Positions 28,375 to 34,389 of a stretch of 64,000 bases of DNA are shown here, in pieces (the stretch's first letter is position 1; each line of letters begins with the position of its first letter). Below the pieces are notes generated by a model, which worked only from the letters and a program-made list of their open reading frames with translations, was not told the origin of the DNA and searched no databases. A program made the position numbers and the translations under genes. This DNA comes from Verrucomicrobiia bacterium (GTDB lineage: Bacteria > Verrucomicrobiota > Verrucomicrobiia > Limisphaerales > Pedosphaeraceae). The DNA lies in NCBI GenBank assembly GCA_036268055.1, contig DATAUW010000002.1, positions 28,124 through 92,123 on the forward strand, given 5' to 3'.

Positions 28375-28405
28375 AAACGCCAACCGCGTTTGCGATTGGC
28401 GTTTA
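28375..28405. terminator. Hairpin, candidate bidirectional terminator between 27862-28332 and clpC
   Basis: aaacgccaa / ccgcgtttgcgat / tggcgttt. Confidence 0.35.
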
Positions 28406-28426: not shown

Positions 28427-30934
28427 TTAGCTCGAGAGCGCGCCGTGCGCGGACGTGTTCTGGATGAACACAAGTTTGTCGTTTTCCAAGGTGACCTGGA
28501 TGGGATCGTTTTCGTGGAGATTGCCCTTGAGCAATTCCTCCGCCAGCGGATCTTCGAGGAAACGCTCGACCGCGCGGCGCATCGGACGCGCGCCATAATT
28601 CGGGTCGTAGCCCTTCTGCACGAGGAAGTCCATCGCCTTTTCATCCAGCGTGAGATGAATATTCTTGTGCTTCAGGCGCGTCGTGACCTTGCTGATCTCG
28701 AGGTCGAGAATCTGGATCAAGTCCGGTTTCGTAAGCGAGCGGAAGACAATAACATCATCCAAACGATTCAGGAATTCCGGCTTAAACGTGCGCTTGGCTT
28801 CATCCATGATTTTCTCGCGCATGCCTTCGTAGGTATGCTGATCGGAGATCGGCGAAAAGCCCATCGTGGATTGTTTCTTGATGGTTTCTGAACCGACGTT
28901 CGAAGTCATCAATATGATCGTGTTGCGGAAATTCACCACGCGGCCCACGCTGTCGGTCAACTTGCCTTCCTCCAAAATTTGGAGAAGCATGTTCCAGACG
29001 TCCGGATGCGCTTTTTCAATTTCGTCGAATAGCACAACCGAATAAGGCTTGCGGCGCACTTGTTCCGTCAACTGGCCGCCTTCTTCATAACCCACATATC
29101 CGGGCGGCGAACCGACGAGGCGCGACACATTGAATTTTTCCATGTATTCGCTCATGTCGAGTTGAATGAGCGATTTGGTATCGCCGAACATCTGTTCCGC
29201 GAGAGTTTTCGCGAGCAAGGTTTTGCCAACGCCGGTCGGCCCAAGCAACGCGAACGTGCCGATCGGGCGCTTCGGATCTTTCAAGTCCGCGCGAGCGCGG
29301 CGCAAGGCCTTGCACATCGCCACCACGGCTTCGTGCTGGCCGACGACGACCTTGGACATTTCCTGCTCGACCGCGAGCAACCGCTGGGCTTCGCCTTGTT
29401 CCATGCGCTTGAGCGGAATGCCGGTCCACTTGGCGACCACATGCAGAATATCTTCCTCGTCCACGCGAACACGTTTTTCTTCGCGGTTCGTGCGCCATGC
29501 GGTGAGGATGGCGTCGAGTTTTTCCTTCGCCTGCTTTTCTTTATCGCGCATGGACGCCGCGCCTTCAAAATCCTGTTCCTTGATGGCGCGTTCCTTCTTG
29601 ACCTTGATGTCTTCGATCTCGACTTCCACGTCCTTCACTTCGGGCGGGCGAGTCATCGTGCCGATGCGTGCGCGCGAACCGGCTTCGTCCATCAAATCAA
29701 TCGCCTTGTCCGGCAGGAAACGATCGGGGATATAACGGTCGGAAAGCTTGACCGCCGCCTCAATGGCTTTATCAGTGAATTCTGCCTTATGATGCTCTTC
29801 GTATTTGCCGCGAAGGCCCTTGAGAATAAGCACGGCTTCCTCGATGGAAGGCGCTTCGACTTTCACACTCTGGAAACGACGTTCGAGCGCGGCGTCTTTC
29901 TCGATATATTTGCGATATTCATTGAGCGTGGTCGCGCCGATGCATTGCATCTCGCCGCGGCTGAGCGCGGGCTTGATGATGTTCGAGGCGTCCATCGTGC
30001 CTTCGGCGGAACCCGCGCCGACGATGGTGTGCAACTCGTCAATGAACAAAATAATATTCTTCGCGCGGCGGATTTCGTCCATGACCGCTTTGATGCGCTC
30101 TTCGAACTGGCCGCGATATTTAGTGCCCGCCACCATCAACGCGAGGTCGAGAGTGATGACGCGTTTTTCGCGCAGCAATTCCGGCACGTTGCCTTGGGCG
30201 ATTTCCTGCGCGAGACCTTCGACGATGGCGGTCTTGCCGACACCCGCTTCACCGAGCAGCACGGGATTATTTTTCGTGCGGCGGCAAAGGATTTGAATGA
30301 CGCGCTCGATCTCGTTCTTGCGGCCGATGACCGGGTCCATTTCATTTTTGCGCGCAATCTCCGTGAGGTCGCGCCCAAAGGCTTTCAACGCCGGGGTTTT
30401 GACATCGCCTTTTTTCTCCGGCGGGGCAGGGCGTTCCGCGCCTTCGCCACCTTGCGGCGGAGTTTGTTCTTCTGAGGCGGAAAAATTCGGATCAAGTTCC
30501 TTGAGGATTTCCTGGCGCGTCTGTTCGATGTCAATGTCCAGATTCTTCAACACGCGTGCGGCCACGCCGTCGCCTTCACGCAGCAGGCCCAATAATATAT
30601 GCTCCGTGCCGACGTAGGTGTGATTGAGCGCCTTGGCTTCCTTGGCGGCGAGTTGCAAAACCTTCTTCACGCGCGGCGTATAAGGAATATTGCCGATCAT
30701 TTTTTGATCGGGACCGGTGCCGACTTGCTTCTCGACTTCCATGCGGACGGTTTCGAGATCGAGCCCGAGTTTTTGCAAGACGTTGACCGCGACGCCCTGT
30801 CCCAATTTGATCAGGCCGAGCAAAAGATGTTCGGTGCCAACGAAGTTATGGTTAAAGCGATCGGCCTCTTTGCGCGCCAGCGCGAGCACTTGTTGTGCGC
30901 GTGGCGTAAAATTATTCATTGATTCATCACTCAT
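28427..30934 (-). CDS. clpC: ATP-dependent Clp protease ATP-binding subunit ClpC
   Basis: 835 aa. Two Clp_N repeats, two AAA+ modules ([16 protein letters not shown]), a UVR motif. Confidence 0.95.
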
Positions 30935-30945
30935 AATTCAAAATG

Positions 30946-32064
30946 CTACGGTTTTTCAGGTTTGTCCACTTTACCGCCTTCCATGCCCGCGCCGCGAGCG
31001 ACTGGCCGGCTCACGCCGCGCAAATGTTCCCGCACCATATCCGCACGCAGCAAATCCCGTTCCTCAGCCGAAAGTTTCTCCGAATGCTGCTTCTGCAAAT
31101 GCGCCGGCTGCGTCAATATAAATAACTCATCGGTCAAGGACCGGTCGCCGCCGGGGAACAAATCCAAGTCTATTCCCAGGCGCATGAATGACAACAGGTT
31201 CATCGTTTCTTTGGACGTAATCGTATGGGCGTTCGCGAGAATGCCGTAGGCGCGACCTATATGGTTGAAAAGCATTTTGGGCTTCTTTTCCAGGAGCATC
31301 GCACGCGAATTTTCTTCGTGCTCGATGATCTGGGAAAGCACTTTGTCGAGGCGTTCGACTATGGCAGTTTCGGTTTCGCCCAAGGTCATTTGGTTGGAAA
31401 CCTGGAAAACATTGCCCAGTGCTTCAGTACCTTCGCCATACAAACCGCGCACGGCCAGGCCAAGTTTGTTCACGGATTGGATGATCGGGTTGATCTGTTC
31501 GTGGAGGACGAGTCCGGGCAGGTGCAACATCGCGCTTACGCGGATGCCGGTGCCGAGATTCGTCGGGCAAGCGGTGAGATACCCGATGTCCGAGCTATAG
31601 GCGTAATTCAATTTGCGCTCAAGCGCGGTATCCGCCTGATCAATCGCCAGCCACGCCTGCTTAAGTTGCAAACCGGGGCGAAGCGCTTGCATGCGCAAAT
31701 GATCTTCCTCGTTGATCATCACGCAAAGGGATTCTTCGCGATTGAGAACAAGTCCGCTGCCGGCGCTTTTCGCGGCGTGCTCGCGGCTGATGAGATGGCG
31801 TTCGATGAGAATCTGTTTATCGAGCGCGGAAAGATTATCCATGGACTCCGAGAACGCGCCTTTCATTTCCGAAAGGCTTTCGACGGCGGGCCGGATGATG
31901 TCCATGAGGCGGACCTTCTCCGATTTTTTCGCCCAACCCGGAAACGCCCCGTCCCGGACATTGCGCGCGAGCCGCACCCGGCTCGACATCACGATCCGGT
32001 CGTGCGGGCCTTTGCGGCGCACGCTGTCAGCCGGCGGGATGAGGAAGTCATGAATGTTCATCAA
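30946..32064 (-). CDS. mcsB: Protein arginine kinase (ATP:guanido phosphotransferase)
   Basis: 372 aa. Phosphagen-kinase signature CPTNLGTGIR. Confidence 0.9.
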   Translation of the reverse strand: MMNIHDFLIPPADSVRRKGPHDRIVMSSRVRLARNVRDGAFPGWAKKSEKVRLMDIIRPAVESLSEMKGAFSESMDNLSALDKQILIERHLISREHAAKSAGSGLVLNREESLCVMINEEDHLRMQALRPGLQLKQAWLAIDQADTALERKLNYAYSSDIGYLTACPTNLGTGIRVSAMLHLPGLVLHEQINPIIQSVNKLGLAVRGLYGEGTEALGNVFQVSNQMTLGETETAIVERLDKVLSQIIEHEENSRAMLLEKKPKMLFNHIGRAYGILANAHTITSKETMNLLSFMRLGIDLDLFPGGDRSLTDELFILTQPAHLQKQHSEKLSAEERDLLRADMVREHLRGVSRPVARGAGMEGGKVDKPEKP

Positions 32065-32574
32065 TCAAGTCGTCGCTAAATTGCCCAGCTTATTGGACAT
32101 CTGTTTGATCTCGTCGCGCAACAAGGCGGCCTGCTCAAAATTTTCGTCGTCCACGGCCTTGGAAAGTTTTTTCTGCAACGTCTTCAAACGCTCGGTCAAC
32201 TCGCGGCTCTGTTGAAGCGATTGCGGCACCTTGCCGACGTGGTGCGTGCCCTTGTGCATGGTCTTGAGCAACCCTTCGAGGCCCTCCGCGAAGGTCGCAT
32301 AACATTCCGCGCAACCGAGGCGTCCGGCTTTTTTGAAATCCGCTTGCGTGAAACCGCACTTGGGACATTTCAAATCCGCGCCGCCGGAGGCCGCTTCCAA
32401 TTCCTGCGAAGCGCCGAGGCCGAGCAAAAGATCGGCAAGCGAAAAGCCGGTGGGATCGTTGACGCCTTTTTGCTTGGCGCATTCTTCGCACAAATCTACC
32501 TTCTGCATCTTGTCGCCCTGAATCTGGGTCAGATGCACGGTGGCTTCTTTTTCTTTGCAAACACAACACAACAT
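32065..32574 (-). CDS. mcsA: Protein arginine kinase activator McsA (two CxxC zinc ribbons plus a UVR domain)
   Basis: 169 aa. CCVC..CEEC and CPKC..CAEC pairs. A C-terminal UVR-like helix (AALLRDEIKQM). Confidence 0.8.
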   Translation of the reverse strand: MLCCVCKEKEATVHLTQIQGDKMQKVDLCEECAKQKGVNDPTGFSLADLLLGLGASQELEAASGGADLKCPKCGFTQADFKKAGRLGCAECYATFAEGLEGLLKTMHKGTHHVGKVPQSLQQSRELTERLKTLQKKLSKAVDDENFEQAALLRDEIKQMSNKLGNLATT

Positions 32575-32578
32575 ACGG

Positions 32579-32743
32579 TCAATTTTTATCGCTTAACAAC
32601 TGCGCCAAATCTATTCCGGCGGGATTGTTCAATCCCTTTTTCCGGGCGCATTCTTCGCAGAAATCTTTCGCCCGCGCGGTGTCTCCCTGCACCTGGCTCA
32701 AGTGCACGGACGCTTCCTTCTCTTTACAGACGCAACACAGCAT
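32579..32743 (-). CDS. Mini-McsA. A 54-aa stand-alone zinc-ribbon paralogue of the McsA N-terminus.
   Basis: Manual translation gives MLCCVCKEKEASVHLSQVQGDTARAKDFCEECARKKGLNNPAGIDLAQLLSDKN. This is near-identical to McsA residues 1-50 (MLCCVCKEKEATVHLTQIQGD...CEECAKQKGVNDPTGFSLADLL). Its stop lies 4 nt before the mcsA start. It is below the ORF-track size cut-off. Confidence 0.5.
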   Translation of the reverse strand: MLCCVCKEKEASVHLSQVQGDTARAKDFCEECARKKGLNNPAGIDLAQLLSDKN

Positions 32744-32754
32744 ATCCTTGATAT

Positions 32755-33621
32755 TTATATCGGCTCACCGGAGCTATTAGTCAAGGTGTGGTAGGCCTTA
32801 ATCAGCTTTTGAGTCACGGGACCAGGCTTGCCGGTGCCGATGACGCGGCCATCAATTTTCACCACGGAAATCACTTCCGCACCGGTGCCGGTCAGGAAGC
32901 ATTCTTCCGCATTGAACATATCGTAACGCGTCAGGTTCGGCTCGTTTACGGTCAAACCAGCTTCGACCGCGAGATCCATCACCGCTTTGCGGGTGATGCC
33001 GTAAAGCGCGCCTGCCGAAAGCGGCGGGGTGGACAAAGTATTGCCATTGAGGATGAAGATATTGTCGCCAGTGCATTCCGCGACGTAACCCTCGGCGTTG
33101 AGCATGATGGCTTCTTCGACGCCGCCATTGTTCGCCTCGATTTTCGCGAGGATGTTGTTGAGATAATTAAGCGACTTGATCGCCGGATTGAGCGCGCTGT
33201 GCAGGTTGCGCGTTGTGGCCACGGTGATGATGTCCAGTCCGCGTTTGTAGAACGATTCAGGATAAAGCTGGATTTTGTCCGCGATGATGATGACGGACGG
33301 ATTTTTGCAGCGGTTGGGATTCAGTCCGAGCGTGCCCACGCCGCGTGTCACGACGAGGCGGATATAGCAATCACGCAATTTATTTCTGCGGCAGGTCTCG
33401 ACGACGGCTTTCATCATCTCGGCATGCGAGAGAGGAATGGTGAGCAGCAGTGCCTTGGCCGAGCAAAAAAGCCGGTCAATGTGTTCTTTCAAACGAAAGA
33501 CGCGGCCATTGTAAGCGCGAATTCCTTCAAAGATTCCATCGCCATAAAGCAAGCCGTGATCGAACACGGACACCTTGGCGTCCTTCTCTGCCACATATTT
33601 TCCGTCGAGATATATTTTCAT
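32755..33621 (-). CDS. ilvE: Branched-chain amino acid aminotransferase (class IV PLP enzyme)
   Basis: 288 aa. Family-level similarity (DHGLLYGDGIFEGIRAY, catalytic Lys region). Confidence 0.9.
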   Translation of the reverse strand: MKIYLDGKYVAEKDAKVSVFDHGLLYGDGIFEGIRAYNGRVFRLKEHIDRLFCSAKALLLTIPLSHAEMMKAVVETCRRNKLRDCYIRLVVTRGVGTLGLNPNRCKNPSVIIIADKIQLYPESFYKRGLDIITVATTRNLHSALNPAIKSLNYLNNILAKIEANNGGVEEAIMLNAEGYVAECTGDNIFILNGNTLSTPPLSAGALYGITRKAVMDLAVEAGLTVNEPNLTRYDMFNAEECFLTGTGAEVISVVKIDGRVIGTGKPGPVTQKLIKAYHTLTNSSGEPI

Positions 33622-33698
33622 GATTAAAACAAACTCAACCTACGTTAAACCCCCGCCAATGCGCAACAAATAAGGTCGCTTTATTTTCTTCGATATTC

Positions 33699-33775
33699 GA
33701 ATCCGTGTTCCTCCGTGTTCCATCCGTGGCCAAAATTTCTTTCCCCCAGTGGCCGTCCGCAAGGATCTTCGTGGT
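33699..33775. repeat. Junction of two dispersed repeat families. A family A copy in reverse orientation (gaatccgtgttcctccgtgttccatccgtggccaaaa) lies immediately next to the family B core (tttcccccagtggccgtccgcaaggatct).
   Basis: Sequence matches to 12945-12983 (reverse complement) and to 53155-53185. Confidence 0.45.
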
Positions 33776-33828
33776 AAAAAAATGCTTCTCACTATACACA
33801 ACCGCAAATGTTTGCTAATCTCTCCGAT

Positions 33829-34389
33829 ATGGCACTCGACGACATCATATTGGAAGCGGAAGAAAAAATGCTCAAGACCGAGGAAGTAGTCCAGCACGAG
33901 TTCTCTGGCGTGCGCACCGGCAAGGCTTCGCCGGGGCTGGTCGAAAATATTTTGGTGGACGTTTACGGTTCGCAGATGCGCATCCGCGAACTCGCTGGCA
34001 TCACCACGCCCGAGCCGCGCATGCTGCTCATCCAGCCGTGGGACGCCGGTTCAGTCAGCGCCATTGAGAAGGCGATTCAAAAAAGCAATCTGGGCCTCAA
34101 TCCGATGACGGACAAAAAATTCATCCGCATCGTTTTGCCGGAATTGAGTCAGGAACGCCGTCAGGAATTTATCAAAATCGTAAAAAAAATGTCCGAGGAT
34201 GGGCGCGTGGCCATCCGCCATGTCCGTCGCGATGCCCTCGAGCAACTAAAAAAAGATGGCAAAGCGGGTGGTGTGACTGAAGATCAAGTGGAAGCGGCGG
34301 ACAAGGAAGTTCAAAAGCTGACGGATCAATATATCGCGAAAATTGACACGCATCTCGCCCACAAGGAAAAAGAAATTATGACGGTGTGA
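33829..34389 (+). CDS. frr: Ribosome recycling factor
   Basis: Aligns along its full length with Frr (RTGKASPGLVENILVDVYG...). The start at 33829 (MALDDI) is preferred over the track start at 33808. Confidence 0.95.
   Translation: MALDDIILEAEEKMLKTEEVVQHEFSGVRTGKASPGLVENILVDVYGSQMRIRELAGITTPEPRMLLIQPWDAGSVSAIEKAIQKSNLGLNPMTDKKFIRIVLPELSQERRQEFIKIVKKMSEDGRVAIRHVRRDALEQLKKDGKAGGVTEDQVEAADKEVQKLTDQYIAKIDTHLAHKEKEIMTV

What the first reader, a model, noticed from the sequence alone, without database searches (positions are those of the whole stretch)
32579..32743. Stand-alone 54-aa paralogue of the McsA zinc ribbon directly upstream of mcsA-mcsB-clpC, where ctsR would normally be
Manual translation of the minus strand gives MLCCVCKEKEASVHLSQVQGDTARAKDFCEECARKKGLNNPAGIDLAQLLSDKN. 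Its first ~50 residues are nearly identical to McsA residues 1-50, including the CxxC...CxxC zinc knuckle. The nucleotide sequence is about 75% identical to the mcsA 5' end, indicating a tandem partial duplication. The mini-ORF stops 4 nt before the mcsA ATG, which implies translational coupling. In Firmicutes the equivalent position holds the repressor ctsR, and no ctsR is present here. A single-zinc-ribbon mini-McsA could modulate McsB activation, act as a decoy, or serve as a regulatory leader peptide. It is missed by the >=60-aa ORF track.
Basis: seen in the sequence. Interest (0 to 1): 0.7.

Follow-up and report, generated by a model that had tools for sequence, protein, structure and literature searches.

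The report
Stand-alone McsA zinc-domain mini-gene
A real 54-codon gene in a soil Verrucomicrobium, made by partly duplicating the start of the stress gene mcsA, encodes only that protein's first zinc-binding domain and has been kept by selection, so it is probably a small helper or brake of the arginine-kinase/Clp protein-quality-control machine.

Summary
Window 32579..32743 (-) is an intact 54-aa ORF. It is 66% identical (29/44 aa; 72.7% nt over 132 nt) to the N-terminus of McsA and ends 4 nt before the mcsA ATG.

It is not decaying. Orthologues in two metagenome contigs are 85-89% identical with no indels and dN/dS about 0.11, at dS about 0.5-0.65, similar to the flanking gene. Synonymous sites between the mini and its own mcsA are near saturation, so the duplication is old and there has been no recent gene conversion.

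Similar minis with other breakpoints sit in at least five places on an mcsA tree of Pedosphaera-like genomes. Close relatives carry frameshifted remnants or none, so the gene is accessory.

The ctsR analogy is not supported: the upstream neighbour is a syntenic aminotransferase.

Verdict: new variant of a known kind, moderate interest.

The parts
32579..32743 (-). [not shown]
   Evidence: Orthologues P0001/P0002 are 85-89% identical. dN/dS is 0.11. AF2 model has pLDDT 77.6, with a hairpin at 13-28 and a helix at 30-36.
32575..32578 (-). 4-nt spacer (CCGT) between the mini stop TGA and the mcsA ATG. No SD-like motif precedes mcsA.
   Evidence: The same 4-nt spacing occurs at L001 (two junctions), L002 and L088; L028 has 3 nt and L004 has 6 nt.
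32065..32574 (-). [not shown]
   Evidence: Pfam UVR. NCBIfam NF053706 at 144 bits. Aligns with 8wtb_B at E 3.6e-29 over residues 1-163.
30946..32064 (-). mcsB, protein-arginine kinase
   Evidence: Pfam ATP-gua_Ptrans, E 1.2e-66.
28427..30934 (-). clpC AAA+ unfoldase
   Evidence: Pfam Clp_N, AAA_2, AAA_lid_9 and ClpB_D2-small.
32755..33621 (-). Class IV (branched-chain/D-amino-acid type) aminotransferase, the conserved upstream neighbour. Its last codons and the spacer were co-duplicated with the mcsA 5' end.
   Evidence: Pfam Aminotran_4, E 1.1e-58. Synteny in 93 of 164 related loci.
32744..32754 (-). 11-nt spacer with an AAGGA (SD-like) motif just before the mini ATG
   Evidence: The equivalent 'TAGGATT/TAAGATT ATG' precedes mcsA in relatives that lack a mini.
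32575..32595 (-). Footprint of the duplicated aminotransferase tail and spacer: 'gcgataaaaattgaccgt' matches 'ccgatataaatatcaaggat' at 32744..32763. It now supplies the mini's last codons (SDKN) and its stop.
   Evidence: Alignment; upstream strings. The homologous, clearer case is L091.
33791..33818 (-). Sigma-70-like promoter match upstream of the aminotransferase. This is the only such match upstream of the gene string, and it is a weak consensus hit.
28375..28404 (-). Strong terminator-like hairpin (13 pairs plus a T run) just after clpC. It bounds a putative five-gene operon.

Best explanation

Inferred. It is co-transcribed with mcsA and probably translationally coupled to it, so it would be made in fixed proportion to McsA. 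Because it lacks the McsB-binding and activating part, it cannot act as an McsB activator.

For: - ORF, spacing and paralogy.
- Orthologues with the same length and frame in L001 and L002: 14 synonymous vs 9 non-synonymous and 12 vs 7 changes; dN/dS 0.11; dS 0.51-0.65 against 0.63-0.82 in the flanking aminotransferase; binomial P 2e-5 and 5e-5. Differences by codon position are 5/1/17 and 4/3/12.
- Residues 33-54 are invariant among the three orthologues except I44V.
- Old duplication with no recent gene conversion: pS between the mini and its own mcsA is 0.59. In the first 17 codons, 9 of 9.7 synonymous sites differ against only 2 non-synonymous changes.
- All other minis give dN/dS 0.05-0.33.
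- The McsA N-terminal domain is stated to be homologous to ClpG N1 (PMC10641755).
- Recurrent origin at different breakpoints, in at least five tree positions.
Against: - There is no expression, zinc-binding or interaction data for this protein. Transcription and coupling are inferred from spacing only.
- The gene is dispensable at clade level. The closest genome-resolved relatives (L019, L032) lack it. L017, L097 and L098 hold frameshifted or truncated remnants. L050 has lost it cleanly inside a mini-bearing clade.
- Only three instances of the 54-aa type are known, so the dN/dS rests on 19-23 substitutions per pair.
- Isolated ClpG N1 did not compete with the hexamer even at 20-fold excess (PMC10641755), which warns that a monomeric free domain may be a weak competitor.
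- The biochemistry comes from B. subtilis. McsAB activity has never been studied in Gram-negative bacteria (PMC11046695).
Confidence: 0.55

Rival explanations
1. [not shown]
For: - McsA and ClpE N-terminal domains are homologous to the aggregate-targeting ClpG N1 and keep a hydrophobic residue on the first strand (PMC10641755).
- The mini keeps V13-H14-L15 on predicted strand 13-19.
- In ClpE, the hydrophobic stretch right after the zinc core is needed for aggregate targeting (PMC13125188). The mini keeps the equivalent G(I/V)DLAQLL invariant.
Against: - A single N1 domain binds weakly. Avidity from four or more domains was needed, and free N1 had no effect in trans.
- The mini has no link to an unfoldase or kinase.
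Confidence: 0.2
2. Non-functional by-product. The mini would be a leftover of a duplication-prone junction that simply has not yet decayed.
For: - The aminotransferase-mcsA junction is a hot spot. Gaps of 49-527 nt hold remnants or unrelated inserts in about 20 loci.
- Decayed copies are present in L017, L097, L098 and possibly L024 and L130.
- Most relatives lack a mini.
Against: - dN/dS is 0.11 with P of about 2e-5 and 5e-5.
- There are no indels over dS 0.5-0.65.
- The Cys ligands are kept in every intact copy.
- Synonymous sites against the parent gene are near saturation, so conservation is not due to youth or gene conversion.
Confidence: 0.1
3. Coupling ORF or leader only. What matters would be that ribosomes translate through to the stop 4 nt before mcsA and so deliver ribosomes to an SD-less mcsA start. 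The peptide itself would be irrelevant.
For: - Stop-start spacing of 3-6 nt is conserved in six junctions.
- The window mcsA lacks the AGGA-like motif that precedes the first copy.
Against: - Selection for an open frame alone would not give dN/dS 0.11, nor an almost invariant 22-residue C-terminal half.
- Minis of the L076/L091/L108 type are 32 nt from mcsA, keep their own copy of the upstream motif, and are still conserved.
Confidence: 0.1
4. Thiol, redox or metal sensor or buffer. The four-Cys zinc site would release zinc or form disulfides under oxidative or metal stress and signal to the McsAB/ClpC system.
For: - The four cysteines are conserved.
- Older work proposed McsA zinc sites as oxidative-stress sensors. 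ClpE loses its zinc subdomain under oxidative stress (discussed in PMC11046695; PMC13125188).
Against: - The same PNAS paper argues that McsA is not the oxidative sensor.
- Nothing in the sequence distinguishes a sensing site from a structural zinc site.
Confidence: 0.07
5. Functional replacement of the missing repressor CtsR.
For: Only the position upstream of mcsA.
Against: - The mini has no winged-helix or any DNA-binding domain hit.
- No CtsR box or CIRCE element is found in the window.
- The position is explained by the duplication mechanism, and most relatives lack the mini.
Confidence: 0.02

Closest known systems
McsA, protein-arginine kinase activator (B. subtilis; PDB 8wtb/8wtc; NCBIfam NF053706)
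ClpE N-terminal NN subdomain and ClpG N1 domain (zinc-stabilised substrate/aggregate-targeting domains of AAA+ proteins)
   Same: Same zinc-ligand positions as ClpE (C3, C6, C29, C32). Significant profile match to ClpE. Predicted hairpin-plus-helix zinc fold. A hydrophobic stretch follows the core, as in ClpE.
Domain-only 'microprotein' regulators that derive from, and interfere with, a larger multidomain parent
   Same: A single interaction domain copied from the parent gene, missing the effector parts, and co-expressed with the parent.
   Different: No interaction or inhibitory effect has been shown here. The analogy is functional only.
Translationally coupled upstream ORFs in compact bacterial operons
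   Same: A 4-nt stop-start distance and no SD-like motif before the downstream gene.
   Different: The peptide sequence is itself under purifying selection and encodes a foldable domain.

Membership tests
[not shown]
   C3, C6, C29 and C32 are present. BLASTP against the cognate McsA gives E 3e-22. The profile matches 8wtb_B residues 3-58.
McsA (protein-arginine kinase activator, NF053706) | Second zinc domain plus L3 loop that binds and activates the McsB kinase domain | tested here: not met
   [not shown]
McsA (protein-arginine kinase activator, NF053706) | C-terminal UVR/coiled-coil domain | tested here: not met
   The mini has no UVR hit, whereas McsA has one at 128-161.
McsA (protein-arginine kinase activator, NF053706) | Score at or above the curated family cut-off | tested here: not met
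   26.2 bits against a cut-off of 210.
[not shown]
   C3/C6/C29/C32 are identical to the ClpE ligand positions. They are invariant or nearly so in 88 homologues.
[not shown]
   The AF2 model has strands at 13-19 and 22-28 and a helix at 30-36. pLDDT is 83-90 over residues 1-30. This is a prediction only.
[not shown]
   [not shown]
[not shown]
   This needs ICP-OES and aggregate-binding assays.
CtsR class III stress repressor | Winged-helix DNA-binding domain and a CtsR operator (tandem heptad) at the operon | tested here: not met
   No such Pfam or NCBIfam hit. The CtsR-box search gives 3 matches at 3 mismatches against 4.75 expected, none near the operon.
Regulatory leader peptide / coupling uORF | Stop codon within a few nt of the downstream start | tested here: met
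   4 nt. Related junctions have 3-6 nt.
Regulatory leader peptide / coupling uORF | Peptide sequence itself not constrained (function lies in the act of translation) | tested here: not met
   dN/dS is 0.11, and the C-terminal 22 residues are almost invariant.

The most novel reading that the evidence does not exclude
Probability: 0.3. Interest if true: 0.65.

Novelty: new variant of a known kind. Interest (0 to 1): 0.5.

Why it matters

It also shows three further things:
- The McsAB-ClpC module in Gram-negative Verrucomicrobia has lineage-specific accessories.
- Sub-60-aa genes of this kind are missed by ORF-length cut-offs.
- When such genes are called, they are mis-named as full 'McsA activators'.

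The birth-retention-decay series across related genomes is a clean small case study of microprotein origin by partial gene duplication.

Tried and rejected
- Genome and metagenome scans. I hoped for many orthologues of the 54-aa type. None was more than 66% identical, so the type is known only from the window, L001 and L002. The scans instead gave the comparative set of 160 loci.
- Fold searches. Nothing significant was found. A 54-residue zinc finger matches many generic treble-clef, RING or ribosomal zinc folds, so I do not use these results as evidence beyond 'compatible with ClpG N1'.
- CtsR box and CIRCE searches. Both were negative.
- Gene conversion as the cause of the low dN/dS. Rejected because synonymous sites between mini and mcsA are near saturation.
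- Assembly artefact. Rejected because three divergent assemblies carry the gene.
- AlphaFold multimer with McsB, McsA or ClpC. Not available with these tools.
- I did not search the window for a ctsR homologue beyond the operon neighbours.

Full report
**1. What is in the sequence**

On the minus strand, 32743..32579 is an ATG-started 54-codon ORF: MLCCVCKEKEASVHLSQVQGDTARAKDFCEECARKKGLNNPAGIDLAQLLSDKN. Its TGA stop is followed by CCGT and then the ATG of a 169-aa protein at 32574..32065. That protein is McsA:
- It has a UVR motif.
- It matches NCBIfam McsA.
- It aligns end to end with B. subtilis McsA, PDB 8wtb (E 3.6e-29).

mcsB (ATP:guanido phosphotransferase domain, E 1.2e-66) and clpC follow with 0-11 nt gaps. 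A class IV aminotransferase gene ends 11 nt upstream of the mini.

The only promoter-like match lies upstream of the aminotransferase (33818..33791). A 13-bp hairpin with a T run follows clpC (28404..28375). The arrangement therefore looks like one five-gene operon. This is an inference from consensus scans and spacing only.

The mini matches its own McsA at 29/44 residues (E 3e-22). Nucleotide identity is 72.7% over 132 nt and 78% over the first 51 nt. These are the only two such ORFs in the window.

**2. Which part of McsA it is**

The mini's cysteines are at positions 3, 6, 29 and 32. These are the same positions shown to bind zinc in ClpE (De Rosa et al. 2026, PMC13125188). Katikaridis et al. 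2023 (PMC10641755) state that the McsA and ClpE N-terminal domains are homologous to ClpG N1, the aggregate-targeting zinc domain.

**3. Origin**

The 20 nt before the mcsA ATG (gcgataaaaattgaccgt) still resemble the aminotransferase tail plus spacer that precede the mini (ccgatataaatatcaaggat). The duplicated unit was therefore [aminotransferase 3' end + spacer + about 150 nt of mcsA]. The copied tail now provides the mini's last codons and stop.

A clearer case is L091. There, about 45 nt of aminotransferase tail, the spacer and about 245 nt of mcsA are repeated at 88% identity. The 75-aa mini stops inside the copied tail.

**4. Is it maintained?**

Protein searches found two 54-aa orthologues (85% and 89% identical) on JGI soil metagenome contigs. 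Both lie directly after the same aminotransferase.

Against the window, they differ by 14 synonymous / 9 non-synonymous and 12 / 7 changes:
- dN/dS is 0.11.
- dS is 0.65 and 0.51.
- There are no indels.
- Differences by codon position are 5/1/17 and 4/3/12.
- The excess of synonymous change has binomial P of 2e-5 and 5e-5.

The flanking aminotransferase has dS 0.63-0.82. Residues 33-54 are invariant except I44V; variation sits in the hairpin tip.

Between the mini and its own mcsA, synonymous sites are near saturation (pS 0.59). In codons 1-17, 9 of 9.7 synonymous sites differ against 2 non-synonymous changes. The duplication is therefore old, and the similarity is held by selection on both proteins rather than by youth or gene conversion.

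L001 carries a second, much more divergent mini (62 aa) between the first and mcsA. L002 also has a divergent second copy. All junctions there are 4 nt.

**5. Distribution**

Scans of GTDB species genomes and JGI metagenomes returned 160 related loci. All are Verrucomicrobiota of the Pedosphaera/Limisphaerales type. None holds the 54-aa type (best identity 66%), so the source genome is not in those collections. The closest are the Pedosphaera sp. MAGs L019 and L032 (ClpC about 92%, McsB about 87% identical).

The aminotransferase-mcsA-mcsB-clpC order is conserved in 93 of 164 loci, and many of the rest are cut by contig ends. The aminotransferase-mcsA gap is under 20 nt in 64 loci.

Intact minis of 60-75 aa, with different breakpoints and tails, occur in L003, L004, L028, L076, L088, L091, L108 and L121. 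Their dN/dS against paralogues and orthologues is 0.05-0.33, while McsA N-termini give 0.01-0.06.

On an mcsA neighbour-joining tree, minis sit in at least five separate places. Decay and loss are also seen:
- L017 has MLCGACNKNEATVH followed by a stop.
- L097 and L098 share a frameshifted, truncated remnant and are sisters of the intact L088.
- L024 has lost the first CxxC.
- L050 lacks the mini inside the L076/L091/L108 clade.
- L019 and L032, next to the window, have a clean junction.

The same junction also holds unrelated small inserts in L006, L155 and L049. The picture is recurrent birth, long retention under selection in some lineages, and loss in others. This is an accessory gene, not a core one.

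**6. A wider family**

An exhaustive HMMER search of 1.84 billion cluster representatives gave 219 clusters at E <= 1e-3. These include:
- McsA-McsB fusions.

**7. Mechanism**

Inferred: co-transcription and translational coupling. The evidence is the 4-nt spacing and the absence of an SD-like motif before mcsA, whereas AAGGA precedes the mini.

The main rival is a free aggregate or misfolded-protein binder, by analogy with ClpG N1 and ClpE (about 0.2). The published finding that isolated N1 does not compete with hexameric ClpG is a caution for both readings.

The remaining readings:
- A pure coupling ORF is disfavoured by the constraint on the peptide.
- A decaying remnant is disfavoured by dN/dS.
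- A CtsR substitute has no support.

**8. Verdict**

The ctsR framing and the 'McsB activation' idea are not supported.

Noticed in passing
L001:799-987 and L002:1394-1504: The two closest relatives carry a second, strongly diverged mini (62 aa in L001, with a 6-residue longer hairpin) between the 54-aa mini and mcsA. Each junction is 4 nt. The window has only one mini, so copy number varies from 1 to at least 2 within this lineage.
   Followed up: partly
L017:3312-3474, L097:277-362, L098:1-57, L024:1480-1745: These loci hold pseudogenised minis between the aminotransferase gene and mcsA. They show a premature stop after 14 codons, frameshifts with an internal deletion, or loss of the first CxxC.
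   Followed up: yes
L006:1284-1617, L155:2563-3001, L049:3473-4001: The same aminotransferase-mcsA junction holds unrelated inserts in other genomes: small predicted membrane proteins in L006 and L155, and a pair of small ORFs in L049. The junction looks like an insertion and duplication hot spot.
   Followed up: no
L001:25-618: The ORF upstream of the mini in L001 is aminotransferase-like only in its last ~85 residues. Its N-terminal part reads like an unrelated protein, possibly sigma-factor-like. This could be a chimeric metagenome assembly or a real rearrangement.
   Followed up: no
[not shown]
   Followed up: partly
[not shown]
   Followed up: partly
L010, L013, L015, L026, L038, L041, L074, L075, L082, L083 (record titles): Contigs with the typical verrucomicrobial aminotransferase-mcsA-mcsB-clpC block are labelled Methanotrichaceae archaeon, Bifidobacterium, Dongiaceae, Acidoferrum, Limnocylindria or Binatia. 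These are probably binning contaminants or mislabelled MAGs.
   Followed up: no
window 32058-32067 (-): The mcsA stop TGA is followed immediately by TTG ATG, the start of mcsB. The aminotransferase-mini and mcsB-clpC gaps are both 11 nt. The whole five-gene string is packed as if translationally coupled throughout.
   Followed up: no
window 33622-33807: A 186-nt divergent intergenic region lies between the ribosome-recycling-factor-like gene (33808..34389, +) and the aminotransferase gene. It holds the only promoter-like match for the operon and no CIRCE or CtsR operator, so what controls this clpC operon is unknown.
   Followed up: partly
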